Positions 46,551 to 63,918 of a DNA stretch of 64,000 bases are shown piece after piece. The position numbers and the translations under genes were made by a program. The stretch is taken from NCBI GenBank assembly GCA_012690745.1, contig GCA_012690745.1_4086.2. One strand, written 5' to 3'. The notes below the pieces were generated by a model, which saw only the letters and a list, made by a program, of their open reading frames with translations, did no database searches and was not told the origin of the DNA. The DNA comes from a phage. The number at the start of each line of letters is the position of its first letter. The first letter of the stretch is position 1.

Positions 46551-46793
46551 ATGAAAGTACTGACAGAACTAGAAATGTATCATAGATTTAATAAGTACTA
46601 TCATTTACTTAAGCCTATACAGAGGATTAAATGTCCATTTGAAGAGAAACAGGTTTTAATCTATGAGCACAAGTTCTTTGTATCATTAGGTACAGATCAA
46701 CAAGAGTACTATTTGACGTTGTACTTGATTACATTAATAGATTTAATTCACTATAAAACCAAACAAGCTAATAAAGAGAAATATGAAAACTAA
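46551..46793 (+). CDS. small protein, array-3 family
   Basis: trimmed to MKVLTELEMY; LGTDQQEYYL. Confidence 0.55.
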   Translation: MKVLTELEMYHRFNKYYHLLKPIQRIKCPFEEKQVLIYEHKFFVSLGTDQQEYYLTLYLITLIDLIHYKTKQANKEKYEN

Positions 46794-47127
46794 TATACAA
46801 CTCAAGGTATATAAATCATTTGAACATACATATATCAAAAGTAGTCTATGTAGAGATGTAATGGATTACAAGGGTAAGCCATTCACAATTACCTATGATT
46901 CTTATGTTAGTGATTTATATATATCATTTGTTAATTACGAAAATAAAATATACAAGCACGTTGATATTAAAGATTTAAGTACTTTATCACCAGAGGAATA
47001 CTTTCAGGAATCATTAGTATGGGATTTAGAGTTTCCTATGCCATTAGTACATAAGATGATAGTACTAATGAAAGAATCTAAACAGGAGCCTAATGGTGAT
47101 TATGAAGAACACACAGTTGAGTATTAA
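46783..47127 (+). CDS. array-4 family protein (EEYFQ-SLV-D motif)
   Basis: EEYFQESLVWD. Confidence 0.6.
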   Translation: MKTNIQLKVYKSFEHTYIKSSLCRDVMDYKGKPFTITYDSYVSDLYISFVNYENKIYKHVDIKDLSTLSPEEYFQESLVWDLEFPMPLVHKMIVLMKESKQEPNGDYEEHTVEY

Positions 47128-47497
47128 AAGTACTGATAATACTAAGAGTTATACAAGCTCAAGTACTGTGACAATCGAAGTGAATTCTATTAATGCTGGT
47201 AATGCAGTAGATAAGTTCTTTATTGCTCAAGGGTACAGGAAAGATATTCATCAATACTGTTCAGTATATGGGGAGTACAATTCTACTGAAGATATAATTT
47301 ATTGGTCAACACATCAAGATTATATAACTAAAATTGGCGTTCCAGATGTTAGTACTTTATCTGAAGAAGAATACTTTCAGTACAGCTTAGTACATGATGT
47401 ACCTATACCTTTAGAGTTGCTCAAGGGTATACAGGAAGAGGTTCATAAGCTTAAATCCATGAGTTCAGGTACTTTCATTAGAACAGTGCAATACTAG
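47093..47497 (+). CDS. array-4 family protein
   Basis: EEYFQYSLVHD. Confidence 0.6.
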   Translation: MVIMKNTQLSIKSTDNTKSYTSSSTVTIEVNSINAGNAVDKFFIAQGYRKDIHQYCSVYGEYNSTEDIIYWSTHQDYITKIGVPDVSTLSEEEYFQYSLVHDVPIPLELLKGIQEEVHKLKSMSSGTFIRTVQY

Positions 47498-47498
47498 C

Positions 47499-47527
47499 TT
47501 GACAGTACTTTTCATTACTGATATAGT
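47499..47527 (+). promoter_or_regulatory. internal sigma70-type promoter
   Basis: TTGACA-17-TATAGT. Confidence 0.45.
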
Positions 47528-47556
47528 ACTTGTACGTTAATCATAGGGTAAAAATT

Positions 47557-47802
47557 ATGTTAAATTTTTTAAATTTCCTTATCGTTTTGTGTATTGTTCT
47601 TGGGATTGCACCATTTGTATTGTATTTCATGGATTCAGATGAAATGCAGAAGATGAATTGCACAAGGACAGGACAGAGTAGAGAAGAGACGATTCTTATG
47701 CCTGTTACGGTTATTGTTAACAACATGCCCATTACAAACATGGTCCCTACCCTAACGACAACGTACCAGTACTCTTGTACAGATGGAGAGAGGTGGAGAT
47801 GA
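47557..47802 (+). CDS. small membrane protein (hydrophobic N-terminal helix)
   Basis: trimmed to MLNFLNFLIVLCIVLGIAPFVLYF, downstream of the internal promoter. Confidence 0.5.
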   Translation: MLNFLNFLIVLCIVLGIAPFVLYFMDSDEMQKMNCTRTGQSREETILMPVTVIVNNMPITNMVPTLTTTYQYSCTDGERWR

Positions 47803-48119
47803 AATTTAATATAGCAAAAACATCTAATATATGTATATTTGGTTATGCCGAAGAGTTGGGTGATATTGACATTCTTTTGTACAAAAAAGATGGTGTTATG
47901 CATTTCAAGTACCAGGATGAAGAGGCAGACAATTATTCTTTACCTAATTTAGTACAAATGCAGGAAGAGGAATTATTCCAGTACAGCTTAGTATATGACA
48001 TTGATATTTGCACGATGCCAGTACTAATTAATATTCAAAAAGTGATGCTCGATGTGTTTGATAGGCTAATACAAGGCACACAAGGAAGAACCATATATGT
48101 CAATGTACAAGACAATTAA
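47799..48119 (+). CDS. array-4 family protein
   Basis: trimmed to MKFNIAKTSN; EEELFQYSLVYD; SD GGAGAGAGGTGGAG. Confidence 0.6.
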   Translation: MKFNIAKTSNICIFGYAEELGDIDILLYKKDGVMHFKYQDEEADNYSLPNLVQMQEEELFQYSLVYDIDICTMPVLINIQKVMLDVFDRLIQGTQGRTIYVNVQDN

Positions 48120-49254: not shown

Positions 49255-49800
49255 ATGAATGATATAGAATTATTAGCACACAAGATTAGTACAATAATGC
49301 TTATCCTCAATAACAACCATCCTATATCGCAGATAGATGGAATCCTGAGTCAGAGGACAGGTGGTAGTTTATATTTGACATTAACAGAGGTTATCGCAAG
49401 GAATTACATTGATATTGAAATCGAGAACAGTGATGCATCAGGAAAGGTTGATGTAGGTGCATTAATCAGTTCAAATCCAGTATCAGCATCACCATTGACA
49501 AGAAATGTAAGTACAGGATTCGAAGGGTATTTGTGGTACAATACCAATGATGATTATTTTATATATCAGCATTCCAATACAAATTATGATGAAGACAAAT
49601 TTCAGTTCATAGACCCTTATGATGAAGCTGAAGTATTTCAAAAATCATTAATCACAAAACCGCATGAGATGATGTATCTAATGTTATTCAGTACAATGCA
49701 TTTGAATCCATTAATTAAAGGTTTAAAATTTTATATTCAATTGAATTTAGTCCATGTAGTTTATGATTTATTAATGCAAGGATATAGTTATGAAGTATAA
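49255..49800 (+). CDS. array-4 family protein
   Basis: DEAEVFQKSLITKP. Confidence 0.55.
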   Translation: MNDIELLAHKISTIMLILNNNHPISQIDGILSQRTGGSLYLTLTEVIARNYIDIEIENSDASGKVDVGALISSNPVSASPLTRNVSTGFEGYLWYNTNDDYFIYQHSNTNYDEDKFQFIDPYDEAEVFQKSLITKPHEMMYLMLFSTMHLNPLIKGLKFYIQLNLVHVVYDLLMQGYSYEV

Positions 49801-50107
49801 AATGCTTAATACAGCATCAGGGATATATGTAGAATTAGAATCCGATTATTCAGATGGATGGAATTTTATTAAACGACACGATAGAAATACATGGTACATG
49901 GCACATTTGGATAATGACGTAATAATAGATAATTTTGTCGATTTTAATACATTATCAGAAGAAGAATTTTTCCAAATGCAATTTGTGCTTGATACAAATG
50001 GATTTGATTTGCTATTATTAAGGAATATTCAGAAAGCGGTTAATGAATTCATAATCCAAAATAATTCAGGTAAAATGGGGATGTTCCATGATCTGGAAGT
50101 ACAATGA
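49790..50107 (+). CDS. array-4 family protein
   Basis: EEEFFQMQFVLD. Confidence 0.6.
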   Translation: MKYKMLNTASGIYVELESDYSDGWNFIKRHDRNTWYMAHLDNDVIIDNFVDFNTLSEEEFFQMQFVLDTNGFDLLLLRNIQKAVNEFIIQNNSGKMGMFHDLEVQ

Positions 50108-50663
50108 AAGCAATGATTACAATGAAATTCAGTACACCTACGCTAATGCAATCCTTATGGGACAAAAGTTAGCTTGTATTGTTGCAGCCTTATATAATGC
50201 CCAGAAATATCACAAGCGTCATTTCCACAAATGTATTGGTATTATTCCATCGAAGTACAATACATATATTGCGTGCACGAGTCATTTTGATAAACGATTC
50301 AATACACCTGATACCCCAAATTCCTGTAGTGTTATTGGTCTTTTGGATTTCGCACCTGGTGCTGTTATTGGAAAGAATGATTTAGAGTACGCATGGTATA
50401 ATAAAAATGCCCCGTTAGTAATGGTAAAATATGATACAGAAACGAATAAAACAATAGAGTACAATACATATAAATCAGAGGAAGAATTTTTCCAAGGTTC
50501 ATTGCTTGTACCAGTGCGTTTGTTATTTTATAATGTCATAATGAGTACAGTACACAATAGTCCATTACACAAGAATCACAAAATTAATTTCAATTTTTGT
50601 GCTTATGCGATTGATGGTGTGTATGAGTGTTTAATGGAGGTATTGAGTTATGAAGCTGAATAA
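50088..50663 (+). CDS. array-4 family protein
   Basis: EEEFFQGSLLVP. Confidence 0.6.
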   Translation: MIWKYNESNDYNEIQYTYANAILMGQKLACIVAALYNAQKYHKRHFHKCIGIIPSKYNTYIACTSHFDKRFNTPDTPNSCSVIGLLDFAPGAVIGKNDLEYAWYNKNAPLVMVKYDTETNKTIEYNTYKSEEEFFQGSLLVPVRLLFYNVIMSTVHNSPLHKNHKINFNFCAYAIDGVYECLMEVLSYEAE

Positions 50664-50991
50664 TACATTTGATATTAATAAGTTAAGAGAATGGTTTTAT
50701 AGTATTGAAATTGAAGCCATCCCGTATCATAGATATGAACAATATAATTTAACCAGTATTGATATCAGTGAGTTGTACGCGTATTATCAAAGTGCATTAG
50801 AGATGCATAAGTTATTTTTGAGTACAGATTTTGTTCTAAATTACAATTTTGAGGAATTTAAAAATTATAATTTAGTACAGAAATATGTAGTAGCAAAGTA
50901 CATGTACCTTCAAGGAATTACAAGTAATTTGGAATTCAATACAGTCCTTGCTTTAGTTGAGGTAATTTTATGCAGTACATGTATGATTTAG
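50650..50991 (+). CDS. array-4 family protein (divergent)
   Basis: ORF track. Confidence 0.5.
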   Translation: MKLNNTFDINKLREWFYSIEIEAIPYHRYEQYNLTSIDISELYAYYQSALEMHKLFLSTDFVLNYNFEEFKNYNLVQKYVVAKYMYLQGITSNLEFNTVLALVEVILCSTCMI

Positions 50992-51476
50992 AGTTTAGTT
51001 TAGATGCTGCCTTTAAATTTGTTCACAAGATAGAAACAATATACAGTACATTATGTGCAATACAATCAGTATCATCTGAGTTTGATGTTGGTGAAAAATA
51101 TCAGGTATGGAATAATACATTTCTAAACAAAGAACGTTGCTCTACGGGGTTTAATATTTTAACATTTAATCCCAGCAATTGTTACCCAGAGAAGCATGAA
51201 CGTTATCCGAATGACGACATGTGGTTTGATTACACAAAAGATGGTGATATGTCATCCCTTGTAGTTCCTGATGATTTTAATGCCGAAGATTTAACGGAAG
51301 AGTGGTGGTTTCAACAGAATTTAGTACACGATGATATTGATTTATTTTTTTATGTAGTATTTAAAATGCTTTACCACAACAATATATTAAAAGATAGTGT
51401 GTTTTTTTCATGTCTATATATTGATGATTTGTACAATGAAATCCAAATCAACATTCCCAGCACGCCTGTATCGTAA
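50970..51476 (+). CDS. array-4 family protein
   Basis: EEWWFQQNLVHDD. Confidence 0.6.
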   Translation: MQYMYDLEFSLDAAFKFVHKIETIYSTLCAIQSVSSEFDVGEKYQVWNNTFLNKERCSTGFNILTFNPSNCYPEKHERYPNDDMWFDYTKDGDMSSLVVPDDFNAEDLTEEWWFQQNLVHDDIDLFFYVVFKMLYHNNILKDSVFFSCLYIDDLYNEIQINIPSTPVS

Positions 51477-51501
51477 GATATGGGCTTTTTTCGTTTTGGT
51501 A

Positions 51502-51530
51502 TTGACAAAGAAGTGCAAAGCTGTTATCAT
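51502..51530 (+). promoter_or_regulatory. internal sigma70-type promoter
   Basis: TTGACA-17-TATCAT; SD AAAGGAGAA. Confidence 0.45.
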
Positions 51531-51558: not shown

Positions 51559-52071
51559 GTGAGTTTCATAATCCCAAGTACATACGAAGATGCATCAAGT
51601 GCAGTTCATAAGATTCATTATATTTTTAATTTAATTATTAGATCTGCAAAAATTAAAATGTATGCACCTCTTGTGGAATACGATAAAAATGAGGAAATTT
51701 TTGTTAGCACAGACCAAATTATTTTTCCATATTTCAATGAAGATAGATTGTGGTTCATGCATTTAGCTGCATTACAAAAATATAAAATGTCAATTCGTAA
51801 TAATTTGGATATACCGTTATATCATCCTGATATTGGAGAGGATGAATATTTTCAGTACAGTACAGTACACCGCCATGAAGATATCTTTGTTGCTATGCTT
51901 ATTGCTAAATTGAATACCGTTGATTTGGAGCAGTACAAATACAATAATAAATCATGTAAGATCATAATCCCTGCATTCATAGCTCTTTATGATTATGTGG
52001 TGCATAACAAAAAAGATGATACATATGCTTTCAATGAAGAGTATTTGAATTTTTTTAAGGAGAACATATGA
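51559..52071 (+). CDS. array-4 family protein
   Basis: ORF track 51397..52071 trimmed to GTG after promoter and SD; DEYFQYSTVH. Confidence 0.5.
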   Translation: MSFIIPSTYEDASSAVHKIHYIFNLIIRSAKIKMYAPLVEYDKNEEIFVSTDQIIFPYFNEDRLWFMHLAALQKYKMSIRNNLDIPLYHPDIGEDEYFQYSTVHRHEDIFVAMLIAKLNTVDLEQYKYNNKSCKIIIPAFIALYDYVVHNKKDDTYAFNEEYLNFFKENI

Positions 52072-52595
52072 GCAGTGAAGTGCTGAAATCAATGACATTC
52101 AATGAAATTGGTACATTTAAAGATAAGATCATTGATTGCATTGAATACATGATTTGTAGTAATATCGAAAGTATCGAGATATTTAACAAGACAAATCGCT
52201 CTTACCATATGATGTACATTGCAAACAATAATGGTATCATTCCATTTATTTCGGATAGTACAATATGGTACGCATGTGATACGAAAAAAACCACAATAGG
52301 TTTACATTCATTTGAGACACATTATGATCTAATTATTCCTGAACATTGTATGCAAGAAGAAGAATATTTTCAAATGCAATGTATACATTCACCATTAGTG
52401 TTGTTTAGTTTATATATTATACCTTATATCACCAAATGTGTTCATGAGAATAAAGCTCCGTGGAATCATGAATTTGTATCGTTGAAGTTATTGTATAATG
52501 TATTAGTAGAATATTATGATTACAGGCACAATGGTACAATCAGTGATGTATGGGATTTTGAATCGCTAAGGGTGAAAACATACACAGGTGAATGA
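52068..52595 (+). CDS. array-4 family protein
   Basis: EEEYFQMQCIHSP. Confidence 0.6.
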   Translation: MSSEVLKSMTFNEIGTFKDKIIDCIEYMICSNIESIEIFNKTNRSYHMMYIANNNGIIPFISDSTIWYACDTKKTTIGLHSFETHYDLIIPEHCMQEEEYFQMQCIHSPLVLFSLYIIPYITKCVHENKAPWNHEFVSLKLLYNVLVEYYDYRHNGTISDVWDFESLRVKTYTGE

Positions 52596-53211
52596 TATGA
52601 CCAGAATTAAAATGTATGATTTGATGCTGTACAGTAAAATTGCCATTCCAGTGCTTAATAAAGTGCTGGATGCATTCATTGCCAAATACCCTGAGAATTC
52701 AGTGTTATGTATTCCATTTAGTGTTCCAGATAAAGATGATATATTCCAAGTGAATGTCAGTACACGTGGTATTACATTGCAGCAGAAATATATGGATACG
52801 GAATATTATGGAATAAAGTTGGATTCAGTACAGGGTTCTAAATCAGCCTATGATTTTTTTGTTCCTAATAACATCGAGTCATGGGAAACAAACATTTCAA
52901 AGAAAGATGAAAATGATGTTCCTATTAGTGGTGTGTTCAACAATAAAGTTTTTTATTATTACGAAACCGACAAATTCCCTGAAGAGTTATATTACAATTC
53001 AGAAATGAATGAAGATGTAGATGCATTCATGTTTCAATTATCGTTAGTACATGATATCATTGATGTTCAAGAGTTAAGAGCAGAAATCAATTTAGCTAAA
53101 GAGTTATCGGACATGCTCCCACCGTTTAGTATGCTTTTTTGTGAAGGAGGTTATTTTTCAAAAGAAGTGTTTGAACATTTCGTAGATGTTGTAAAAGGGT
53201 TGGATATATAG
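52588..53211 (+). CDS. array-4 family protein
   Basis: DAFMFQLSLVHD. Confidence 0.6.
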   Translation: MNDMTRIKMYDLMLYSKIAIPVLNKVLDAFIAKYPENSVLCIPFSVPDKDDIFQVNVSTRGITLQQKYMDTEYYGIKLDSVQGSKSAYDFFVPNNIESWETNISKKDENDVPISGVFNNKVFYYYETDKFPEELYYNSEMNEDVDAFMFQLSLVHDIIDVQELRAEINLAKELSDMLPPFSMLFCEGGYFSKEVFEHFVDVVKGLDI

Positions 53212-53415: not shown

Positions 53416-53931
53416 ATGCATCAACACAAGCATCATTCATATGATTTTGCAATTAACATTATGAAGTTTATTCGAGCGTTGGAGGATGGGAAGCTTAGTC
53501 ATAAGTACAGGAAAGAGGGTAACAATTGGTTCAGAAATGATTCCGAGTTCAGTTGTCATAAAATCGTGTATAGTAATCAGTACAGTGCCAATTACCTACA
53601 AGATGTAGTGATGTGTTTTGAATACGTGTTGCAGTTCAGGGGTTCAATCCAAGATGAGTTGATGGAGAACATGTACATCCGATACCTTCCAATGCTCAAA
53701 GATGAAAATGTATTATTAAATTCAATATACCAACGAGTTCGTGAAATTGAGTGCAGGGATATATTAGATACAGAAGAATCGTATTTCCAGCAATCCCTGA
53801 TTTATTCACCTGATTTATTACAGGTACATAATTTGTTTAATACATTACGTCAGAACATCAGTACAGACATATTTTTGTCATTATCGGATTATGATACATT
53901 TGTCAAAGATTTAGAGGAAATAGGTTTATGA
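53416..53931 (+). CDS. array-4 family protein
   Basis: EESYFQQSLIYSPD. Confidence 0.6.
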   Translation: MHQHKHHSYDFAINIMKFIRALEDGKLSHKYRKEGNNWFRNDSEFSCHKIVYSNQYSANYLQDVVMCFEYVLQFRGSIQDELMENMYIRYLPMLKDENVLLNSIYQRVREIECRDILDTEESYFQQSLIYSPDLLQVHNLFNTLRQNISTDIFLSLSDYDTFVKDLEEIGL

Positions 53932-54272
53932 GTCGATTTTCGGTTTATATAGTAAACGTCAGTAAAGATGGTAGTTTAATTGAATTTGATGTAGTTGATA
54001 ACAATGATAATTCATATGGTATTAAGGTACAGGACAATGATGTACAGTTCAGTACAAGGACAAATTTTGAGAATCCAGTCCAAGTTCCGAATTTCATAGA
54101 AGATGAAGCTGCACGATTCCAATACGAAACGGCCTTTGATAATGTACATATGCATATTATTATGCAACAAAGTTTAGTTCAATTAGTTCCTTTGTTCAGA
54201 CAAAATATATATGTACATGAAGTGTCGATTAATGGCATTCAAAGTTCCGTATTGTTCGATACAAATATGTAA
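53928..54272 (+). CDS. array-4 family protein
   Basis: EAARFQYETAFDN. Confidence 0.55.
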   Translation: MSRFSVYIVNVSKDGSLIEFDVVDNNDNSYGIKVQDNDVQFSTRTNFENPVQVPNFIEDEAARFQYETAFDNVHMHIIMQQSLVQLVPLFRQNIYVHEVSINGIQSSVLFDTNM

Positions 54273-56166: not shown

Positions 56167-56532
56167 AAAGAAATTAGAATTCAATTCGGTATGAGGAAAA
56201 AAGAGGTCATCTGTACACTGAATCATGCGGTCGTGGAAAGCCTTGGTGGTGCATTACAAAAATTCTCCCATTTTGTTCTTGTACTATATGAAAATGGGTC
56301 TTTTAAAATCTTCACATATGATGATTCAAAAAATTACCGTAATGATTTTGTAAATCTGACAGTACTGTCAGAAGAGGAATTCTTTCAGGAAAGTACTGTC
56401 TGGAATTTACCAGGAGCACCAATTGAATACGTCCGTGCTACACAGGCAGAAATGATCAAAGTAATGCAGAACTATCCAGAAGATTATATGACTAAGTTTC
56501 CTGAATCTATTTATGTAGAGGTTGAGTACTGA
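56161..56532 (+). CDS. array-4 family protein
   Basis: EEEFFQESTVWN. Confidence 0.6.
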   Translation: MKKEIRIQFGMRKKEVICTLNHAVVESLGGALQKFSHFVLVLYENGSFKIFTYDDSKNYRNDFVNLTVLSEEEFFQESTVWNLPGAPIEYVRATQAEMIKVMQNYPEDYMTKFPESIYVEVEY

Positions 56533-56888
56533 TGGAATTTGATTTTTTAATATCAGTACATACTTTCAAGCACAGTTATCAGTACTTTTGTAATTTAAAC
56601 AAAGGTGATTTAATGCACAGTGCAAATGAGTATATTCATTACACTCAGGGTAAATTTACATTCATTGATTACAGTTCATTACAGTATCCACACCAAGATA
56701 TGCCGGACTATACATTAATGGATACCGCAGAACTATTCCAAGAATCATTAGTATTTGATAAGAAGTACTTGTGTACATTTGAAGAAGTTATTGCAATACA
56801 AAATGAAATGAAAGAGTATGCTGCTTTGCATAAACCCAATGCAAGTATTAATCAAGAATACAAATTCAATTTAGGAATTCAAGAATGA
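56532..56888 (+). CDS. array-4 family protein
   Basis: TAELFQESLVFDKKYLCTFEEVIAIQ. Confidence 0.6.
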   Translation: MEFDFLISVHTFKHSYQYFCNLNKGDLMHSANEYIHYTQGKFTFIDYSSLQYPHQDMPDYTLMDTAELFQESLVFDKKYLCTFEEVIAIQNEMKEYAALHKPNASINQEYKFNLGIQE

Positions 56889-57244
56889 CATATGATTATT
56901 CTATGTACTATTATAAGTTACCTAAAGGATGGGACTTGTGCTGTAATCTTATTAAGGGCGACTCGGAACATGAGTTGAGTTTATATATGCATTACAAAGA
57001 TTCTTGTTTTAAATTTATTCATGTATCACATGACGACTATGACTATGAATCTGAGAGTCTTATAGATTATACAGTACTGGACGATGGTGAACTATTTCAG
57101 GCTGCATTAGTGTTTGATAAGAATAAGTACTCCTGTACATTTGAAGAAATGGTTTCTTTGCAAAATGAAATGAAGAGATTTGAAAAAGAAAACGTATTTA
57201 ATCCATCCCCATCAAGAACGAATAATTATTATTTCAATATATGA
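56885..57244 (+). CDS. array-4 family protein
   Basis: DGELFQAALVFDKNKYSCTFEEMVSLQ. Confidence 0.6.
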   Translation: MTYDYSMYYYKLPKGWDLCCNLIKGDSEHELSLYMHYKDSCFKFIHVSHDDYDYESESLIDYTVLDDGELFQAALVFDKNKYSCTFEEMVSLQNEMKRFEKENVFNPSPSRTNNYYFNI

Positions 57245-57253: not shown

Positions 57254-57745
57254 ATGACATTACAGAGTTCATTGGAAAAAGCAAAGAAGATTCATGAGTA
57301 CATGAATATGGCAAAAGAAGGTTCAGTTTACGGTGTTTTCAAAGACACAAGTACTCAATATTATGTACCGGATAACCTCCTTTATAATGACTGCTCAGAT
57401 ACAGAAACGTGCGTACTGGATACAGAAACGTGCATACTAGATACCGACCCTAATGATTATGAATGCTTCATTAATATGCATAATGAGTACATGGTCTATA
57501 TTAATGATACAGATACCATCAACAGTACTGACAGCGATTCCAATGACATTATAATTCCGAGTGAAGTACTGGAAGGTCCGTGGGATAGTGAAGAGTATTA
57601 CTTCCAACAAAGTACTGTATATGATAATGAAGTACTTGATGTTATTATAATTATGTGGTACTTTAAAAGTATTGGTTCTGGGAACTTCTATTTCGATTAC
57701 AAATACGTAAAGAAAACTGTAGATAACGGTATTAACAGGGGTTGA
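57254..57745 (+). CDS. array-4 family protein (MSLQSALEKAKK subfamily)
   Basis: GPWDSEEYYFQQSTVYD. Confidence 0.65.
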   Translation: MTLQSSLEKAKKIHEYMNMAKEGSVYGVFKDTSTQYYVPDNLLYNDCSDTETCVLDTETCILDTDPNDYECFINMHNEYMVYINDTDTINSTDSDSNDIIIPSEVLEGPWDSEEYYFQQSTVYDNEVLDVIIIMWYFKSIGSGNFYFDYKYVKKTVDNGINRG

Positions 57746-57746
57746 A

Positions 57747-58217
57747 ATGAGTTTAGAAAGAGCATTAGAGATTGCGAAGTTAATTGATTTATGCAGCAAA
57801 GAAATTGTAGCAAATTGTCTTAATGGATATCTATTCAAGGAAGGTAAATCATATTGTCGAATGAGATACGATGACAGTAGTGAGTACATTCACATGTATG
57901 AAGAAAACTTAGATTCTTCTGAAACAACACTCAATGGGTGTGATGTTAATTTGGAAGATAATTACATGTACTTCTGTCGTGATGCTGATATTTTAATACA
58001 AGATTCTGACATTATATCTGGTGCAGCAGAGAAACATCTTCCGTATTCAGTACTGGATAATGACTGGGGAAGTGAAGAGTACTACTTCCAGCAGAATACT
58101 ATCTACGAGGAAGATGTACTTGACAAGCTTGTCATTCTGTGGTACTTTAATAATACAGATTGTCCTAGCTTCTATTTGGACTTGGATCTACTACGAGTTA
58201 TTAAAGAGGATATATGA
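57747..58217 (+). CDS. array-4 family protein (same subfamily)
   Basis: DWGSEEYYFQQNTIYEED. Confidence 0.65.
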   Translation: MSLERALEIAKLIDLCSKEIVANCLNGYLFKEGKSYCRMRYDDSSEYIHMYEENLDSSETTLNGCDVNLEDNYMYFCRDADILIQDSDIISGAAEKHLPYSVLDNDWGSEEYYFQQNTIYEEDVLDKLVILWYFNNTDCPSFYLDLDLLRVIKEDI

Positions 58218-58657
58218 GTTTAGCAAGTGCACTTGAACTAGCACACAGAATACATCACTTCCACGATAACATAAAAAGTGGGTTCTATGGTGATAAAGTA
58301 AGTGCATTTGGTGATGAGTATTATCTATCAGGTATAAAGACATACTCTGATGATATTTTACTTATGGGACAGGATAAAGACAATACTATACAGTACTCTT
58401 CATGTAGTCAATATACTAATTTTTTTGTATATATTCCAGGTACTAAGATTACTTTTGACACAACAAATACACCTGTTGACTTCGGGGTACTTGATGGCCC
58501 GTGGGGTACTGAAGAGTATTACTTCCAACAGAGTCTCATTTTTAACCAAGAAATTCTTGATTCCTTGGTTGTGTTGTGGTACTTTAAGGAATTGAATTTT
58601 GAACCATTCTTTCTTGACTGGGGAGCATGTGAATATTTAAGTACAGGGGATTTGTAA
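58214..58657 (+). CDS. array-4 family protein (same subfamily)
   Basis: GPWGTEEYYFQQSLIFNQ. Confidence 0.65.
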   Translation: MSLASALELAHRIHHFHDNIKSGFYGDKVSAFGDEYYLSGIKTYSDDILLMGQDKDNTIQYSSCSQYTNFFVYIPGTKITFDTTNTPVDFGVLDGPWGTEEYYFQQSLIFNQEILDSLVVLWYFKELNFEPFFLDWGACEYLSTGDL

Positions 58658-59145
58658 TGTCATTACAAAGTGCATTGAAAGAAGCAAAGAAGATTCATGA
58701 GTACATGATTATGGTACAGGAAGGTTCAGTACCAGGTGTATATAAAACATCTGATACTGAATTTTTTGTAAAAGACCGTGACGATTATGACGAGTCCGAG
58801 ATATGTGCAGAAACATTAGTACTGCACACTGATACTGGTGACAGTGATAACTGTGAATATCATATGTACAATCAGTACATTAGTTATTGCCGTAATGAAG
58901 ATATTACCATCTACAACACAGATAGTGATGCTGATGACACTATCATTCCTTATTCAGTACTGGAAGGACCGTGGGATAGTGAAGAATATTACTTCCAGAA
59001 TAGTACGTTGTACAATGAAGAAGAATTAGATGTTATTGTAATTATGTGGTATTTCAAAAGTATTGACTCCAGTAGTTTCTATTTTGATTATGAATATGTA
59101 GAGAATACTGTAGGAGAAGGTAATGTCATTACAAAGTGCTCTTGA
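58657..59145 (+). CDS. array-4 family protein (same subfamily)
   Basis: GPWDSEEYYFQNSTLYNEE. Confidence 0.65.
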   Translation: MSLQSALKEAKKIHEYMIMVQEGSVPGVYKTSDTEFFVKDRDDYDESEICAETLVLHTDTGDSDNCEYHMYNQYISYCRNEDITIYNTDSDADDTIIPYSVLEGPWDSEEYYFQNSTLYNEEELDVIVIMWYFKSIDSSSFYFDYEYVENTVGEGNVITKCS

Positions 59146-59575
59146 AAAAGCAAAAGAACTACATGGATACTTTGAAGATATAAAGGCAGGAAAGTTCAAA
59201 GAAGTGTACAAAGCCGAGAACGGCAACTACTACAAGGATGAAATGTATAATAACTCCGTTGGTGTAAGGGTTATTCTTGGGTTGAATTCCAATAGTCCTA
59301 TATCGTTTTCTGAATACAATAGAGATGCAGAATTTATTAGTTATGTTGAAAATGGTAGCATTCGTTTTATTAATCGCAAAAAACCATTAATTTTGAATTA
59401 TGAAGTACTGGAAGGTCCGTGGGATAGTGAAGAGTATTACTTCCAAAACAGTACTGTTTACGATGATGAAGTACTTGAAGCATTAGTTATTATGTGGTAC
59501 TTAAAGAGTGTTAACTGTCCTCGATTTTATTTGGATTTCGAAGAACTTCGTAAAGATCCAGAAGGTATAGAATGA
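59123..59575 (+). CDS. array-4 family protein (same subfamily)
   Basis: GPWDSEEYYFQNSTVYDDE. Confidence 0.65.
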   Translation: MSLQSALEKAKELHGYFEDIKAGKFKEVYKAENGNYYKDEMYNNSVGVRVILGLNSNSPISFSEYNRDAEFISYVENGSIRFINRKKPLILNYEVLEGPWDSEEYYFQNSTVYDDEVLEALVIMWYLKSVNCPRFYLDFEELRKDPEGIE

Positions 59576-59886
59576 AAAACTTATTCAGTGTTCAGTACGT
59601 CCCTGGTGAAATTAGTTTATTGTATCTGTTTGATCATGATAATTCATTATTACTAGTAGTAAAGAAATGCCAAGCTAGTTCGTTTGTTGAATACATTCAC
59701 GATAGTGAATATATACCTGATTTTTTAGAGTGTGATTATTACGATGAACATGAATCATTTATTTTCCAGGAATCTCTCGTATGGGATAAATCGATCAACT
59801 TCTTTACGTTAATTGAATTACAAAAGCAGGTGAAGTATCATTGGGATTATTTAATCACACAGGATTACATTGAGATAGAAATATAA
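59572..59886 (+). CDS. array-4 family protein
   Basis: ESFIFQESLVWD. Confidence 0.6.
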   Translation: MKNLFSVQYVPGEISLLYLFDHDNSLLLVVKKCQASSFVEYIHDSEYIPDFLECDYYDEHESFIFQESLVWDKSINFFTLIELQKQVKYHWDYLITQDYIEIEI

Positions 59887-60194
59887 TGACTAAAAATGAA
59901 TTTGATTCACTTTGTACGGTTTATAATTCATTGACAGAAATACCTGACTTTATTAATTACATTTCAGCTTTAAATCAAATTATGCATAGTTTTGAACAAT
60001 CGTTTGAAGAGAAATATGCTGGTAGAAAAGTTCTATGTCATATGTCAATGTACTTAGGAGATGGTGAGCCTTACACTACAAGTACTACATGTGAAATAAA
60101 AAAATATAATATATTATTGGGGACAATAGAATTCACAGTATCCAATGGTGGTAGTTATATGTACTTTAGAGATGGAGTGGTTGAATTATTATGA
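59886..60194 (+). CDS. hypothetical protein
   Basis: ORF track; family motif not evident. Confidence 0.5.
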   Translation: MTKNEFDSLCTVYNSLTEIPDFINYISALNQIMHSFEQSFEEKYAGRKVLCHMSMYLGDGEPYTTSTTCEIKKYNILLGTIEFTVSNGGSYMYFRDGVVELL

Positions 60195-60640
60195 GTTACG
60201 AAAGTGCAATCAAGAAAGCAAATGATATTCTACGCGTCGTTAAATTCTTCAAAGAAAATCCTGAATACTTAGCTGATGAAAACCATGATCACGATGAGAG
60301 ATTGAGACGAAAAATTGTCGCTTTATTTGACACTAATGCGGATAATTATAGTCTAATTGAGTTAGCATACGATTATATTTCATTGAACCGAAACGGCAAT
60401 ATAGTTAATATAGAAAGACATGCAACTGAAGAATCTTTTAAAATTTCAGATATTTTATCCCTGAGTACTGAAGAAGGGTACTTCCAGGGTAGTACTGTTT
60501 ATGAACAAGGAACACTTGACAATCTATGCACATTCAGTGTAATATATCAGAAATCTGTACTAGATGTATTTTATCTTGACACTGCTGAACTGGATACACT
60601 AACCAATTTTGTTACTACTGAAGAGGCTACATTCGAGTGA
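60191..60640 (+). CDS. array-4 family protein
   Basis: EEGYFQGSTVYEQ. Confidence 0.6.
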   Translation: MSYESAIKKANDILRVVKFFKENPEYLADENHDHDERLRRKIVALFDTNADNYSLIELAYDYISLNRNGNIVNIERHATEESFKISDILSLSTEEGYFQGSTVYEQGTLDNLCTFSVIYQKSVLDVFYLDTAELDTLTNFVTTEEATFE

Positions 60641-61173
60641 TGAAAGTTAACATCAATGACTTTGATGCATTACAAGATTTATCAAAAAAGATTCGCACCA
60701 TTGTACCAGTACTCAAAAAATGCAGTACTGGTTTAATCGATCCTAGTACTGTTGTTAATGAGAAGTACAATTTTCATTATGTATTACAGGGTACTGGGGC
60801 ATTCCAGAAGTGTGAGGTGCGTGAGACACACGTAATTGATACATCATTGTTTTCTATTGGTGCACCTGTGTCGAATAATACTATTTTCCTAGACAACGCT
60901 GGAAATATTCAACAATTAACATTTAAGAAAAGGAAAAAGAACAATAACATTGGTGTGTATGCGATGAAGTGGGGTCAACCTGATTTGAAGCGTGAAATTC
61001 ACATCCCTAAGTACAATTACAATGCATTTGACGAACAGTGTTTTCAACTATCGTGTACTGACCCTGACTATGCTATCATTCAGTTCTATATGGAATTGCA
61101 GATAGCATTTAACAGTAATTTGTATATTAACTTATTGGCGATTAACATTGATGAAGTATTCAAAAACATTTAA
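60637..61173 (+). CDS. array-4 family protein (divergent)
   Basis: DEQCFQLSCTDPD. Confidence 0.55.
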   Translation: MMKVNINDFDALQDLSKKIRTIVPVLKKCSTGLIDPSTVVNEKYNFHYVLQGTGAFQKCEVRETHVIDTSLFSIGAPVSNNTIFLDNAGNIQQLTFKKRKKNNNIGVYAMKWGQPDLKREIHIPKYNYNAFDEQCFQLSCTDPDYAIIQFYMELQIAFNSNLYINLLAINIDEVFKNI

Positions 61174-61369: not shown

Positions 61370-61538
61370 CATTGCTAAACTATTCAATATATATTCTACT
61401 AGAATGATGCAAACAGACTCATATAGTACTGAATTCAAAGAGTTGAAAGTCCTGATGTACTTGGGAACCCAATATCAGGAACAAGTTATTTTGGAATATA
61501 TTAATTCGCTGAAGAAGGATATCCGTTATGTACGATGA
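61347..61538 (+). CDS. small protein, array-3-like (LGTQYQEQ) inside array 4
   Basis: ORF track. Confidence 0.55.
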   Translation: MKIIDQNDIAKLFNIYSTRMMQTDSYSTEFKELKVLMYLGTQYQEQVILEYINSLKKDIRYVR

Positions 61539-62088
61539 TTTAGATATTGCGTTTGAACGTATGGTAATTTTAATGCAATGTGCAGAAATGCATGAAACAA
61601 TCCGTCGCACCAAAGGGATTGAATATACAAGTAAACTATTCTCATACGAAAGTCGTCGAGGGATGGATCATTTTTACTGCACTGATTGTTCAAAGTTTTC
61701 AGTACTGAAATATTATCATCCTACTGTTTCCAATAATAGTTTAATATCCACATATGACGGTGATCTGTTTAGTGTAATGTATGACACATTACATCCATCA
61801 ATTTCAATCTATAAAGATTGCGATAGTAGTTTATCGTATATAATTGAAGATTACTTATCTCCTAATACTGAAGAGAATATTTTTCAGAACAGTGTGTTGC
61901 ATGATGAATTAAGTATAAAATGCATCTATATGTTCAATAAGTTAAAAGAGTACGCCGATAATAATTACTTAATTGATAAGTTAGCAGTATTGTCTGTTTC
62001 CGTTTTTAATACAAATGACATTGATATGAAATACTATAATGAGATTTGTAAAGTACATCATATGTATAAGGAACTATTATGTCAATAA
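61528..62088 (+). CDS. array-4 family protein
   Basis: EENIFQNSVLHDE. Confidence 0.6.
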   Translation: MYDDLDIAFERMVILMQCAEMHETIRRTKGIEYTSKLFSYESRRGMDHFYCTDCSKFSVLKYYHPTVSNNSLISTYDGDLFSVMYDTLHPSISIYKDCDSSLSYIIEDYLSPNTEENIFQNSVLHDELSIKCIYMFNKLKEYADNNYLIDKLAVLSVSVFNTNDIDMKYYNEICKVHHMYKELLCQ

Positions 62089-62681
62089 ATGCAAATAAAT
62101 GTTGTAGTGCAGATGTGCATTTGTTTTTTAAGAAATTAGCAAATGATATTATATATATGCAGGAAATGATTTATCACAAACGAGCGGATTTAGAAAAAGC
62201 ATTAGTACAGTTCTCATTTATGCTTGATGGTGATATATTTCTAGAGAGTGATGCATTGCGAATAGTATTAGACAAAAATGCTAAAAGATTTTTATTTCAT
62301 ATAGATAATAAATTATGTTCCTCCGTATGTCGTACTTTTTATAATCGTGATTCGGACTTATATCAATTCCTTTATTCTAAAGGTGCAGTAGAAGCATCAT
62401 ATGGTGATGGTTATGCCCTAGGAAAGAGTATTCCATTTATGAAATCATTTAAAATAGAACACATCAGTACTGATGAAGATGCAATGTTCACAAATGATAT
62501 AACTATGGGACGTGAAGATGCAATGCGATATATTACAAATTCTATGCATACATTCTTTCAACGAACAGAATTTGATAATGTATATATATCAAATGTAAAT
62601 ATTTTCAATGACCTGTGTCAGTACTTGAGAAGTGTTTGTGATTTTGATGAAAGCTATTGTAAGCTTTATACTGAGGTATAA
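62079..62681 (+). CDS. array-4 family protein (divergent)
   Basis: ORF track; FFQRTEFDN variant. Confidence 0.5.
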   Translation: MSINANKCCSADVHLFFKKLANDIIYMQEMIYHKRADLEKALVQFSFMLDGDIFLESDALRIVLDKNAKRFLFHIDNKLCSSVCRTFYNRDSDLYQFLYSKGAVEASYGDGYALGKSIPFMKSFKIEHISTDEDAMFTNDITMGREDAMRYITNSMHTFFQRTEFDNVYISNVNIFNDLCQYLRSVCDFDESYCKLYTEV

Positions 62682-62686
62682 AACAA

Positions 62687-63049
62687 ATGAACACATTAAG
62701 TATTACATACTATACAACTAAAAAATTAGTTACTTGTTTAATATCATTGAAGACAAACCATGATGATATGTTTGATATGGCTGCATATGAATTAGAATTA
62801 TCAGAAGATGGCTTCAAGAGCTATGAAGTATATAGCTATGTTCGTGAAGATGTAATTGACACTACACTAATGCAAGAGGATGAGTTATTCCAAGAAAGTT
62901 TAGTATGGGATAATAAGTACGATTGTAACTTTGATTTCTTATGTTTAATCCAGAAAGAAATGAAAAGAATCTTTGATAATTATCCAGTGAAGAGATTGAG
63001 TACTGGACCGGAGCAGTACAGGAGAATTTTATTCCGTTATGAAGACTGA
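62687..63049 (+). CDS. array-4 family protein
   Basis: DELFQESLVWDN. Confidence 0.6.
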   Translation: MNTLSITYYTTKKLVTCLISLKTNHDDMFDMAAYELELSEDGFKSYEVYSYVREDVIDTTLMQEDELFQESLVWDNKYDCNFDFLCLIQKEMKRIFDNYPVKRLSTGPEQYRRILFRYED

Positions 63050-63374
63050 ATTAGTGAAAGTAATGTACGCTACTCATATTAAACTACTACTTGTGAAATT
63101 TGATTATAATAAAAAACATAATGATTTCTATACTTTAATTCGTGATGAAAATACATTCTCCTTGCGATGCAACAATATACCGTTGAAGATAAATGATTTT
63201 ACTTCACTTGACGAGGGTGAATTATTTCAAGAATCATTAGTTTTTAATAGTAATATAAAAATTGATATAGAAGTTATTAAAAAATACCAGATTTTATTGA
63301 ACAAAATTATGAATTGTTATCCATGTGAAATAGGAGGTCATATGCAGTTCAAATCAAAAATGTATGAATTATGA
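63039..63374 (+). CDS. array-4 family protein
   Basis: GELFQESLVFNSN. Confidence 0.6.
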   Translation: MKTELVKVMYATHIKLLLVKFDYNKKHNDFYTLIRDENTFSLRCNNIPLKINDFTSLDEGELFQESLVFNSNIKIDIEVIKKYQILLNKIMNCYPCEIGGHMQFKSKMYEL

Positions 63375-63918
63375 GGTTTATATGTTAGATGAAAAAATGA
63401 ACAATGGAACACAATATAATCATCTTAAGTTGGATACATTCGAATCAGCTATCAGTACTGCACAAGATATAATTGATATTATCAAGTTCATTAAAGAAAA
63501 TAAGTTCAAATGTTTGAAAATACTAAATCGTTCAATGTACCGTGATAAAAATATTCATGTATCAGTACGTAGACCGAAAGATCAAGAAAGTGGGAGAGAT
63601 TTCTATAACAACAGTGAGCAGTTCGAATGTGAATATGATCCAGAATTCAGAGGCGGTTTCATGTGTTACAGTATAAAGGATACCTCACACATTGAGATAC
63701 GTTCATCGAAAGGTGGCATACGTACATTAGAGTTCATTGATATAGTTTTAAATCAGGAATACTACTTTCAACTATCATTATTGTTTCCTGCATACGATTT
63801 AGGAGTTCTATTCATGTATAAGTACTTTCATGAGCACTGGAATGAAGACTTCTATCTGGACTTAGAAGATTACCAATTAGTTTGGAAAGAAATGGTAGAA
63901 CTTCGCAATCCCTCTTGA
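63364..63918 (+). CDS. array-4 family protein
   Basis: QEYYFQLSLLFPAYD. Confidence 0.6.
   Translation: MNYEVYMLDEKMNNGTQYNHLKLDTFESAISTAQDIIDIIKFIKENKFKCLKILNRSMYRDKNIHVSVRRPKDQESGRDFYNNSEQFECEYDPEFRGGFMCYSIKDTSHIEIRSSKGGIRTLEFIDIVLNQEYYFQLSLLFPAYDLGVLFMYKYFHEHWNEDFYLDLEDYQLVWKEMVELRNPS

What the first reader, a model, noticed from the sequence alone, without database searches (positions are those of the whole stretch)
46783..63918. Array 4: about 40 paralogues sharing an (E/D)E-aromatic-FQ-x-S-L-V-x-D core; family also present at the window start
Proteins of 60-220 aa with very different N-terminal regions converge on E-E-(Y/F/L)-(Y/F)-F-Q-x-(S/A)-(L/T)-(V/I)-x-D followed by a hydrophobic stretch. 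Recent tandem duplications are visible as subfamilies (five MSLQSALEKAKK genes at 57254-59575; three at 55626-57244). The truncated gene at 1..330 carries the same motif (LMFQYSLIHKD), so the family flanks the RCC1-like array on both sides and extends beyond the window.
Basis: seen in the sequence. Interest (0 to 1): 0.8.

Follow-up and report, generated by a model that had tools for sequence, protein, structure and literature searches.

The report
Jumbo-phage early multigene family, FQ motif
A giant E. coli phage carries dozens of tandem genes for small acidic proteins that share one short invariant motif and a fold unlike any solved structure; they look like early-expressed host-interaction proteins, but their function is untested.

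Summary
The window comes from an Asteriusvirus (121Q/PBECO4-type) jumbo coliphage. The motif family is real but over-counted. Of about 44 plus-strand ORFs in 46783-63918, 27 are members, with 2 marginal and 2 unresolved. The truncated ORF at 1-330 is also a member.

Members are 104-207 aa and acidic (median pI 4.7). There are two architectures, with or without an N-terminal helix. F and Q are invariant in (L/M)(S/T)EE-x-aromatic-F-Q-x-S-(L/T)-(V/I)-x-D.

Relatives continue the array for at least 11 kb past the window end. Member counts in the stretches scanned were 36-42 (Asteriusvirus), 32 (Klebsiella phage RaK2) and 27 (an uncultured contig). The family was found only in Rak2-like jumbo phages.

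The genes sit in operons with near-consensus sigma-70 promoters, 27 kb from the proven left genome end. They are absent from the phAPEC6 virion proteome and under purifying selection (pN/pS about 0.3).

My best inference (about 0.4) is an early repertoire of host-protein binders built on one scaffold. The duplications are mostly old, not recent.

The parts
1..330 (+). 3' part of a family member (orthologue of 121Q gene 233, 219 aa); motif ISSDLMFQYSLIHK
   Evidence: HMM built without it scores E 7.5e-6. The full-length 121Q orthologue scores E 6.5e-11, but that profile (A1) contains the window fragment.
46783..47127 (+). short-form member, LSPEEYFQESLVWD
   Evidence: E 5e-22
47093..47497 (+). 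short-form member, LSEEEYFQYSLVHD
   Evidence: detected by the long-form-only HMM at E 2e-10
47499..47527 (+). sigma-70-type promoter TTGACA-17-TATAGT in a 59-nt intergenic gap; next gene starts at ATG 47557
47799..48119 (+). short-form member (ORF opens at 47775), MQEEELFQYSLVYD
   Evidence: start taken from the CRJP21 annotation
49255..49800 (+). long-form member, YDEAEVFQKSLITK
   Evidence: phrog_19795
49790..50107 (+). short-form member, LSEEEFFQMQFVLD
50088..50663 (+). long-form member, KSEEEFFQGSLLVP (start codon uncertain)
50970..51476 (+). long-form member, LTEEWWFQQNLVHD
   Evidence: E 8e-31
51464..51485 (+). terminator-like hairpin followed by a T-run, at the 3' end of gene 50970-51476
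51502..51530 (+). sigma-70-type promoter TTGACA-17-TATCAT (TG-extended)
51559..52071 (+). long-form member (GTG start behind AAGGAG; the ORF opens at 51397), IGEDEYFQYSTVHR
52068..52595 (+). long-form member, MQEEEYFQMQCIHS
52588..53211 (+). long-form member, DVDAFMFQLSLVHD
   Evidence: weakest seed, E 7e-11
53416..53931 (+). long-form member, DTEESYFQQSLIYS
53928..54272 (+). marginal, possibly degenerate member, EDEAARFQYETAFD
   Evidence: HMM E 2.8e-3; hhalign probability 8%
54283..54834 (+). long-form member (ORF opens at 54211), LSDESLFQYSTMYD
55442..55470 (+). weaker promoter-like site TTGACA-17-AAAAAT in the 196-nt gap before gene 55626
55626..56003 (+). short-form member (ORF opens at 55485), LDDATLFQAALVFD; subfamily with 56532 and 56885
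56000..56164 (+). 54-codon fragment; its first 85 nt are 96% identical to the 5' end of gene 56532 (a recent partial duplication)
   Evidence: repeat D13
56161..56532 (+). short-form member, LSEEEFFQESTVWN
56532..56888 (+). short-form member, MDTAELFQESLVFD; the modelled protein (pLDDT 84, pTM 0.81)
56885..57244 (+). short-form member, LDDGELFQAALVFD
57254..57745 (+). long-form member, DSEEYYFQQSTVYD; an extra copy with no orthologue in ph0011 or fEgEco12
57747..58217 (+). long-form member, GSEEYYFQQNTIYE
58214..58657 (+). long-form member, GTEEYYFQQSLIFN
58657..59145 (+). long-form member, DSEEYYFQNSTLYN; the modelled protein (pLDDT 87, pTM 0.83)
59123..59575 (+). long-form member, DSEEYYFQNSTVYD
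59572..59886 (+). short-form member, EHESFIFQESLVWD
60191..60640 (+). long-form member, STEEGYFQGSTVYE
60637..61173 (+). unresolved: right size class and contains FDEQCFQLSCTD, but not significant
   Evidence: hhalign E 0.11; phrog_18780
61528..62088 (+). long-form member, NTEENIFQNSVLHD
62079..62681 (+). unresolved: right size class and contains HTFFQRTEFD, but not significant
   Evidence: phrog_33500
62687..63049 (+). short-form member, MQEDELFQESLVWD
63039..63374 (+). short-form member, LDEGELFQESLVFN
63364..63918 (+). long-form member, LNQEYYFQLSLLFP
63915..63944 (+). perfect sigma-70 promoter TTGACA-18(TG)-TATAAT; the next gene (ATG 63979, MSNELTF...) runs off the window and its CRJP21 counterpart is a family member

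Best explanation
This is a lineage-specific multigene family of Rak2-like jumbo phages of Enterobacterales (Asteriusvirus, Alcyoneusvirus, Mimasvirus, uncultured relatives).

Shown: each gene encodes a small (about 105-210 aa), usually strongly acidic protein. The family is absent from the one published virion proteome. The predicted fold has four parts:
- an antiparallel beta-meander that is variable in sequence and loop length;
- a strictly conserved strand, helix-cap and short helix carrying (L/M)(S/T)EE-x-aromatic-F-Q-x-S-(L/T)-(V/I)-x-D;
- a long hydrophobic helix;
- a closing strand.
Long forms add an N-terminal helix (A-x3-A-x2-I).

Shown: the genes lie head to tail, mostly overlapping by a few bases, in operons with near-consensus sigma-70 promoters. 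The array starts 27 kb from the experimentally defined left genome end, just behind the 21-kb terminal repeat.

Inferred: host RNA polymerase transcribes them early. The conserved motif is the folding core of a common scaffold; its S/T-x-x-E and S-x-x-D patterns look like helix caps, with the aromatic residues and F buried. The variable sheet and loops give each paralogue its own binding partner. The array would then work as a repertoire of host-protein binders or inhibitors for host takeover or counter-defence. It was built by old tandem duplications, is maintained gene by gene by purifying selection, and still gains and loses copies.
For: Family reality:
- HMM versus shuffled controls, plus independent hits.
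- Cross-detection between the two architectures.
- An exhaustive search of 1.84 billion representatives gave 98 clusters. All but one are 65-190 aa with the domain at the C-terminal end; the exception is a 241-aa TPR false positive.

Phylogenetic range: RaK2 and K64-1; 32 members in RaK2; 27 in an uncultured contig; 5 in CBB; BFVD fold hits only in 121Q, RaK2, Serratia phage BF, GAP32 and SP27.

Real genes under selection: ORFs are intact in relatives; pN/pS is 0.30 and 0.36. The motif is the most constrained segment (0.22-0.25) and the beta region the least (0.41-0.44). Synonymous codons are mixed at the invariant residues. SD-like sites precede 21 of 27 starts, against a 15% background.

Early and non-virion:
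- Promoters at 47499, 51502 and 63915 lie in the few intergenic gaps.
- 13 perfect consensus promoters lie in the adjoining 20-40 kb, and none in the RCC1 array.
- fEgEco12 position 1 maps to window 20,013, with a 20,993-bp terminal repeat.
- The phAPEC6 virion proteome lists nothing between gp347 and gp549; member gp442c falls in that gap.
- The equivalent small-gene region of CBB was interpreted as early host-takeover genes (PMC5259590).

Binder-like properties: median pI 4.7, and 25 of 27 carry a net charge of -5 or lower (down to -26), against pI 7.8 for neighbouring small ORFs. The conserved positions are mostly aromatic, aliphatic or helix-cap residues. The middle region is rich in indels. 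Copy number differs between close relatives.
Against: - No experiment or homology links any member to any target; the function is inferred from context only.
- Orthologue comparisons show purifying selection in every segment and no positive selection, which is not the signature of an ongoing arms race.
- The invariant Q and the conserved E, E, S and D could form a catalytic or ligand site rather than a folding core. I could not inspect model coordinates.
- Early timing rests on promoter sequence and genome position, not on expression data.
- It is not known which genome end enters the cell first.
Confidence: 0.4

Rival explanations
1. The proteins are small enzymes or small-molecule or metal binders, and the invariant motif (E, E, aromatic, F, Q, S/T, D) is the active or ligand-binding site. 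The paralogues would differ in substrate.
For: F and Q are invariant, and E110 is conserved at 90% or more, across sequences with only 16-20% mean identity. Such polar conservation is unusual for a purely structural element. The motif is the most constrained segment.
Against: - No enzyme fold or family matches.
- The conserved polar residues fit helix-capping patterns.
- No polar position outside the motif is conserved in both architectures (D144 in long forms and Q90 in short forms are each form-specific).
- Thirty to 45 tandem copies of one enzyme would be unusual.
- Acidic residues disfavour nucleotide binding.
Confidence: 0.15
2. The proteins serve the phage's own programme. For example, they could be adaptors, regulators or chaperones for phage transcription, replication or assembly. 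They would not target host proteins.
For: The family is conserved across genera with different hosts (E. coli, Klebsiella, Pectobacterium). Every orthologue is under purifying selection. These phages encode their own sigma factor.
Against: - Copy number and content vary between close relatives, which is unlike core machinery.
- Members are absent from virions.
- Dozens of divergent paralogues are hard to reconcile with one internal role.
Confidence: 0.15
3. The array is mostly dispensable filler. Tandem duplicates would have accumulated because a large capsid with headful packaging tolerates extra DNA, as suggested for jumbo phages in general, and individual copies would have little function.
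For: Hua et al. 2017 proposed tandem duplication as a route to genome expansion and noted an array of more than 30 genes in 121Q (PMC5646251). A truncated duplicate exists at 56000-56164. Some copies are lost in relatives.
Against: - pN/pS is 0.22-0.44 in every segment, and the 24 orthologues that could be aligned to ph0011 are intact apart from a single stop.
- The family and its array organisation persist across genera that share no detectable DNA similarity.
- SD sites and promoters are maintained.
Confidence: 0.1
4. The proteins are specifically DNA mimics, like Ocr, ArdA or Arn, that block restriction enzymes or nucleoid proteins.
For: Strong negative charge (net -10 to -26 in the five-gene subfamily), early-gene position and small size.
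Confidence: 0.1
5. The shared motif is a compositional or chance artefact in unrelated AT-rich ORFs.
For: None beyond the low G+C content (30-35%).
Against: Shuffled controls, independent detections, full-length alignments, confident common fold predictions and the codon-level evidence all contradict it.
Confidence: 0.01

Closest known systems
PHROG families of unknown function (phrog_13866, 12674, 9317, 15629, 19795, 30978, 31297, 30243, 28549 and others)
   Same: These are the same proteins. Window members hit these profiles at E 1e-56 to 1e-143 for their own orthologue group, and weakly (1e-3 to 1e-13) for the shared groups 13866, 12674 and 9317.
   Different: PHROGs splits the family into many unconnected groups, all labelled 'unknown function'. 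No resource defines the family, its motif, its two architectures or its fold.
[quoted passage not shown] 2017, PMC5646251; repeated in the 2026 review PMC13282480)
   Same: Same phage group and the same phenomenon of tandem duplication.
   Different: That paper gives no coordinates, motif or analysis. The phrase may refer instead to the adjacent ~70-aa LGTxxQE family, which has 30 members in this window. The members of the present family are not 'very similar' (16-20% mean identity).
Viral multigene families and gene accordions: ASFV MGF360/505 and poxvirus host-range families (my own knowledge); poxvirus accordions (Elde 2012, as cited in PMC13359090); T4 tifA amplification against toxIN (PMC9391042)
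   Same: Tandem paralogue arrays of accessory genes near a genome end, copy number varying between isolates, and early expression. In the characterised cases they counteract host defences.
   Different: There is no sequence or fold relationship. Here the duplications are old and each copy is individually conserved, so this is not a transient amplification. The function is not demonstrated.
Host-takeover or pre-early modules next to terminal repeats (SPO1 host-takeover module, T5 pre-early region; my own knowledge for SPO1, bioRxiv 10.64898/2026.04.02.716235 for T5)
   Same: Many small genes of unknown function, strong host-type promoters, and a position at or next to a long direct terminal repeat.
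   Different: Those modules hold mostly unrelated single genes, not one family of 30-45 paralogues.
Polyimmunity loci of SUKH/Imm immunity proteins (my own knowledge: Zhang, Iyer and Aravind 2011)
   Same: Tandem arrays of small, divergent paralogues on one scaffold, thought to neutralise different protein toxins.

Membership tests
FQ-motif family defined here (alignments A1-A3) | Core (E/D)E-x-aromatic-F-Q-x-(S/N/A/Q)-(L/T)-(V/I) followed by a hydrophobic helix, in the C-terminal half of a 100-210 aa protein | tested here: met
   27 genes in 46783-63918 plus ORF 1-330. F and Q are invariant in 64 long and 56 short sequences.
FQ-motif family defined here (alignments A1-A3) | Homology beyond the motif: alignable flanks and a common predicted fold | tested here: met
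   Long forms align over residues 1-153. hhalign of short against long gives probability 95% over 38 columns. Both models show sheet, motif helix, long helix and closing strand.
FQ-motif family defined here (alignments A1-A3) | Membership of 53928-54272, 60637-61173 and 62079-62681 | tested here: inconclusive
   HMM E 2.8e-3 for the first, above 0.1 for the other two; hhalign probabilities are 8%, 0.5% and 0.4%.
Early (host-RNA-polymerase-transcribed) phage genes | Consensus sigma-70 promoters upstream of the transcription units | tested here: met
   Promoters at 47499 (11/12), 51502 (11/12, behind a terminator hairpin) and 63915 (12/12) lie in the rare intergenic gaps. Thirteen perfect sites lie in 20-40 kb and none in 1-20 kb.
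Early (host-RNA-polymerase-transcribed) phage genes | Transcripts or proteins appear in the first minutes of infection | not testable with these tools
   I found no transcriptome of an Asteriusvirus or Alcyoneusvirus in the paper library.
Virion structural proteins | Detected in purified particles | tested here: not met
   The phAPEC6 structural proteome (62 proteins) lists nothing between gp347 and gp549. Family member gp442c lies in that gap (PMC7247149).
SIR2-domain NADases (KomC/ThsA type) | Rossmann-type SIR2 fold with an NAD pocket and a catalytic His/Asn | tested here: not met
BTB/T1 (KCTD) domains | BTB fold; sequence signature ...lP.df.....L.EA.yFQl | tested here: not met
DNA-mimic anti-restriction proteins (Ocr, ArdA, Arn) | Strongly acidic protein | tested here: met
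   Median pI 4.7; net charge down to -26.
DNA-mimic anti-restriction proteins (Ocr, ArdA, Arn) | Fold or charge array that mimics B-DNA and inhibits restriction enzymes | tested here: not met
SUKH/Imm polyimmunity proteins | SUKH (SMI1_KNR4) or another Imm domain | tested here: not met
TEV/NIa-type protease cleavage site E-x-x-Y-x-Q-(G/S) | Consensus in an exposed, unstructured context, with a cognate protease present | tested here: not met
   The consensus is matched literally in 60191-60640 (EEGYFQG), and loosely, with F in place of Y at P3, in 50088-50663 (EEFFQG). In the long-form model the motif lies in a predicted helix in blocks with mean pLDDT above 90. The family profile even hits TEV tags in PDB entries. 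I treat this as coincidence.

The most novel reading that the evidence does not exclude
The array is a germline-encoded library of binders on a fold not seen before. One invariant folding core (the FQ motif) displays 30-45 different sheet and loop surfaces. Each would neutralise a different host defence or housekeeping protein in the first minutes of infection. This library would help explain how Rak2-like jumbo phages succeed on varied enterobacterial hosts without a protective nucleus.
Probability: 0.25. Interest if true: 0.8.

Novelty: new member of a known kind. Interest (0 to 1): 0.55.

Why it matters
About 8% of a 350-kb phage genome (some 28 kb, 40 or more genes) is devoted to one protein family. 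No database names it, and confident models of it match no solved fold.

If the members are host-directed binders, they would be a ready-made collection of inhibitors of E. coli, Klebsiella and Pectobacterium proteins and defence systems. That bears on phage therapy, where Asteriusvirus and Alcyoneusvirus phages are candidates, and on tool discovery.

The family also gives a concrete, testable case for the open question of what the hundreds of unknown genes in non-nucleus-forming jumbo phages do, and whether their genomes grew by functional duplication or by filler.

Even without a function, the family definition (motif, two architectures, HMMs) joins many 'unknown' PHROG groups into one family and improves annotation of this clade.

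Tried and rejected
- **BTB/KCTD lead.** E 0.92. Rejected for the same reasons.
- **TEV-site resemblance.** The motif is predicted to lie inside a confident helix. PDB expression tags produce spurious profile hits.
- **Degenerate members.** hhalign of 60637-61173, 62079-62681 and 53928-54272 against the family profiles was not significant.
- **Single-sequence tblastn** of distant representatives against GenBank phages gave nothing or only Asteriusvirus. Only profiles bridge the genera.
The afdb50 fold library was unavailable.
- **Positive selection** between orthologues was looked for by segment and not found.
- **Literature.** The Asteriusvirus, RaK2, CBB, phAPEC6, Sharanji and fEgEco12 papers, the jumbo-phage reviews and two phage Tn-seq preprints contain no description of this family.
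- **Other ORFs in the interval** have no Pfam annotation, and their PHROG matches are all 'unknown function'.

Full report
**Origin of the window.** The interval 46783-63918 is 96.9% identical over its full length to Escherichia phage vB_EcoM_CRJP21. It matches 36 GenBank records, all jumbo coliphages or Salmonella phages of the 121Q/PBECO4 group (genus Asteriusvirus), and every gene under the match is annotated 'hypothetical protein'. The window start matches 121Q at 99.6%. G+C is 30-35% in the interval, and genes from about 21 kb onward lie on the plus strand.

- Twenty-seven ORFs carry a strict form of the motif and align around it.
- An HMM of that core scores the seeds at E 1e-11 to 1e-22. 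Five sets of shuffled ORFs give nothing better than E 0.15.
- The ORF at 1-330 was not used to build the HMM, yet it scores E 7.5e-6.
- The same HMM finds at least 11 additional genes downstream of the window end in CRJP21.
- The invariant F and Q use both synonymous codons about equally (TTT 14, TTC 13; CAG 14, CAA 13). The conserved Ser uses both codon families (AGY 12, TCN 9). The constraint is therefore on the protein, not on a DNA or RNA element.

**Corrections to the observation.**
- The interval holds about 44 non-overlapping plus-strand ORFs, of which 27 are solid members.
- ORF 53928-54272 is marginal (E 2.8e-3; hhalign probability 8%).
- ORF 56000-56164 is a fragment whose first 85 nt are 96% identical to the 5' end of gene 56532.
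- ORFs 60637-61173 and 62079-62681 have the right size and an FQ, but are not significant.
- Four ORFs (48097, 48282, 61148, 61347) belong to a different ~70-aa family. That family has 30 members in the window, 26 of them contiguous at 40785-46793.
- The five MSLQSALEKAKK-type genes and the three DYT(V/L)(L/M)D...LFQ...LVFDKK genes exist as described, but they are 30-57% and 32-41% identical in protein to their subfamily reference, and 62-77% identical in DNA. Their orthologues are already present in ph0011 and fEgEco12. These are old duplications.
- Gene 57254-57745 is an extra copy that ph0011 and fEgEco12 lack. Conversely, fEgEco12 has two copies each of the 46783-like and 49790-like genes. 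Copy number is therefore still changing.
- Upstream of window position 1, phage 121Q has the full 219-aa gene 233 and only scattered members further on (genes 128, 141, 142, 146, 147, 181, 197). It is not an array.

**Anatomy of the proteins.** There are two architectures.
- Sixteen long forms (147-207 aa) begin with a conserved helix (M-S-x3-A-x3-A-x2-I).
- Eleven short forms (104-134 aa) lack it.
- Distant long forms align over residues 1-153.
- Profiles of the two forms match at hhalign probability 95%, E 3.4e-8, over 38 columns centred on the motif. HMMs of one form detect most members of the other.
- AlphaFold2 with 64- and 56-sequence alignments gave confident models (pLDDT 87.4, pTM 0.83; pLDDT 84.2, pTM 0.81). 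Both show an antiparallel beta-meander, a short helix carrying EE-x-aromatic-FQ, a long helix and a closing strand. The long form adds the N-terminal helix and a last short helix.
- Conserved positions are mostly aromatic or aliphatic, plus S/T-x-x-E and S-x-x-D patterns that I read as helix caps (inference). The beta region is the most variable and holds most of the indels.
- The proteins are acidic: median pI 4.7, with 25 of 27 at net -5 to -26. Other small plus-strand ORFs at 21-46.7 kb have a median pI of 7.8.

**Are these real genes?**
- Of the 27 genes, 24 aligned to ph0011 (three over only part of their length) and three gave no hit; the aligned reading frames are intact apart from a single stop, and all 27 are intact in CRJP21.
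- pN/pS is 0.30 against CRJP21 and 0.36 against ph0011.
- By segment, the motif is most constrained (0.22-0.25) and the variable beta region least (0.41-0.44). No segment approaches 1.
- SD-like sequences precede 21 of 27 starts, against a 15% background, and most starts overlap the preceding stop.

**Distribution.**
- A word-indexed search of 5.8 billion proteins returned only proteins without Pfam domains. Those that carry a name are hypothetical proteins of Asteriusvirus phages or of E. coli, the E. coli ones lying on contigs of about 350 kb. Many 'E. coli' labels probably reflect lytic phage genomes inside bacterial assemblies, a phenomenon described in PMC12768965.
- An exhaustive HMMER search of 1.84 billion representatives found 98 clusters at E 1e-3 or better. 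All but one are 65-190 aa with the domain at the C-terminal end. The exception, a 241-aa TPR protein, is a false positive.
- Named members include Klebsiella phages RaK2, K64-1 and KP13-7.
- Scanning fetched loci with the three HMMs (E up to 0.01) gave:
  - 42 members in CRJP21 (27 plus 15 downstream);
  - 41 in ph0011 and 36 in fEgEco12;
  - 32 in a 30-kb same-strand array of RaK2;
  - 27 in 20 kb of an uncultured contig with 29% G+C;
  - 5 scattered members in one 50-kb stretch of Pectobacterium phage CBB.
- Foldseek against predicted viral structures hit only uncharacterised proteins of 121Q, RaK2, Serratia phage BF, GAP32 and SP27.
The family is therefore a hallmark of Rak2-like jumbo phages. 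It was not found in phages outside the group; the only non-coliform bacterial label, a 563-bp 'Actinomadura' contig, looks like contamination.

**Comparison with known families.**
- Pfam-A, NCBIfam and PADLOC have no model for it. This was tested on 10 window proteins and on all 120 aligned members.
- PHROGs contains the proteins but splits them into many groups, all 'unknown function'.
- Profile searches of PDB sequences gave only local, non-significant matches ending at the motif: KomC SIR2 at E 0.036, KCTD1 BTB at E 0.92, and TEV cleavage tags. None is supported by fold or domain evidence, and I reject them.

**Genomic and temporal context.**
- fEgEco12 is an Asteriusvirus whose termini were fixed by PhageTerm and restriction digests. 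It has 20,993-bp direct terminal repeats (PMC13070987).
- Its position 1 aligns to window 20,013, the point where strand and GC skew switch. Window 20-41 kb therefore corresponds to the terminal repeat, the ~70-aa array follows at 40.8-46.8 kb, and the FQ array starts 27.3 kb from the left physical end.
- In the CRJP21 stretch scanned, the last member detected lies about 11 kb beyond the window edge, at about 75 kb in window numbering.
- The plus strand carries 14 perfect 12/12 sigma-70 consensus promoters. Thirteen lie in 20-40 kb, most of them 30-57 nt upstream of a small ORF, and one lies at 63915. There are none on either strand in the RCC1 array at 1-20 kb.
- Inside the FQ array, the strong sites at 47499, 51502 and 63915 sit exactly in the few intergenic gaps. 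The 51502 site lies directly behind a terminator-like hairpin at 51464-51485.
- The published phAPEC6 virion proteome has no protein between gp347 and gp549, whereas the RCC1-like proteins are virion components. Family member gp442c lies in that empty range.
- In CBB, the corresponding small-gene region with RpoD-like promoters was interpreted as early host-takeover genes (PMC5259590).
Early transcription by host polymerase is thus well supported by sequence, but no expression data show it directly.

**Most likely mechanism.**
- Shown: one scaffold with a conserved core and a variable sheet; acidic, non-virion proteins; promoter and position evidence for early expression; old duplications with individual purifying selection; continuing copy-number change.
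- Inferred: the motif is the folding core, and the variable surface gives each paralogue a distinct partner. The array would then be a repertoire of host-protein binders for takeover or counter-defence. It would be functionally analogous to viral multigene families and to phage gene amplifications that counter defence systems (T4 tifA, PMC9391042; accordion models reviewed in PMC13359090).
- I put this at about 0.4.
- Against it: there is no target, no positive selection between orthologues, and a conserved polar constellation that could instead be a catalytic or ligand site.
- Rivals: an enzyme or ligand binder (0.15), a phage-internal regulator or chaperone (0.15), largely dispensable filler (0.1), and specifically DNA mimicry (0.1, partly nested in the main model).

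**Novelty.** Hua et al. [quoted passage not shown] Reviews up to 2026 repeat only that. That phrase fits the ~70-aa array at least as well as this one. I found no description of this family's motif, architectures, fold, distribution or context. The kind of thing, a lineage-specific early multigene family in a large virus, is known. This member is undescribed and has an apparently new fold. I score interest at 0.55: large, clean and testable, but functionally unresolved.

Noticed in passing
window 20013-41000: This stretch corresponds to the 20,993-bp direct terminal repeat of fEgEco12, whose position 1 aligns to window 20,013. It carries 13 perfect TTGACA-16/17-TATAAT promoters on the plus strand, most of them 30-57 nt upstream of a small ORF. 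It looks like a dense block of immediate-early genes. The RCC1 array at 1-20 kb has no such sites.
   Followed up: partly
window 40785-46793, plus 48097-48548 and 61148-61538: A second tandem family of ~70-aa proteins with an (L/F)LGTxxQE motif has 30 members at E below 1e-3. Twenty-six are contiguous and four are embedded inside the FQ array. [quoted passage not shown] 2017 mentioned for 121Q. PHROG 4148, function unknown.
   Followed up: partly
window 56001-56085 versus 56530-56614: An 85-nt direct repeat, 96% identical, has created a 54-codon fragment ORF (56000-56164) that copies the 5' end of gene 56532. It is the only clearly recent duplication or recombination scar in the array.
   Followed up: yes
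window 60479-60500 (STEEGYFQGS) and 50487-50508 (SEEEFFQGS): The family motif coincides with the TEV protease recognition pattern E-x-x-Y-x-Q-(G/S); 60191-60640 matches it literally and 50088-50663 only loosely (F for Y at P3). The family profile therefore picks up ENLYFQGS expression tags in PDB sequences. This is a trap for database searches, and a practical point for anyone purifying these proteins with TEV-cleavable tags.
   Followed up: yes
P0017: A 103-aa partial protein on a 563-bp contig is labelled 'Actinomadura adrarensis' but is 85% identical to the window protein 56532-56888. It is most likely coliphage contamination of that assembly.
   Followed up: no
window 47557-47802: A small predicted membrane protein (hydrophobic stretch LNFLNFLIVLCIVLGIAPFVLYF; phrog_8826) is the first gene behind the 47499 promoter, inside the array.
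   Followed up: no
L004 36662-37075 (ph0011) = L001 40047-40460 (CRJP21), about 9 kb beyond the window end: A 137-aa gene inside the tail of the array is annotated 'putative ADP-ribosyl transferase' in ph0011. Pfam gave no hit and PHROG 11632 is 'unknown', so the annotation is not supported here.
   Followed up: partly
L005 (RaK2 245.5-276 kb) and L006 (uncultured Logan contig SRR15674957_670): Arrays in other genera consist mostly of long forms of 160-205 aa. They become steadily more divergent (weaker HMM scores) toward the distal end, as also seen past the window end in CRJP21. This suggests a gradient of age or decay along the array.
   Followed up: no
window 1-20000, minus strand: The RCC1-like genes next to the family member at 1-330 are virion-associated 'DNA condensation proteins' in the phAPEC6 proteome (gp003-010, gp549, gp551). 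The two neighbouring tandem arrays therefore appear to belong to opposite temporal classes.
   Followed up: partly
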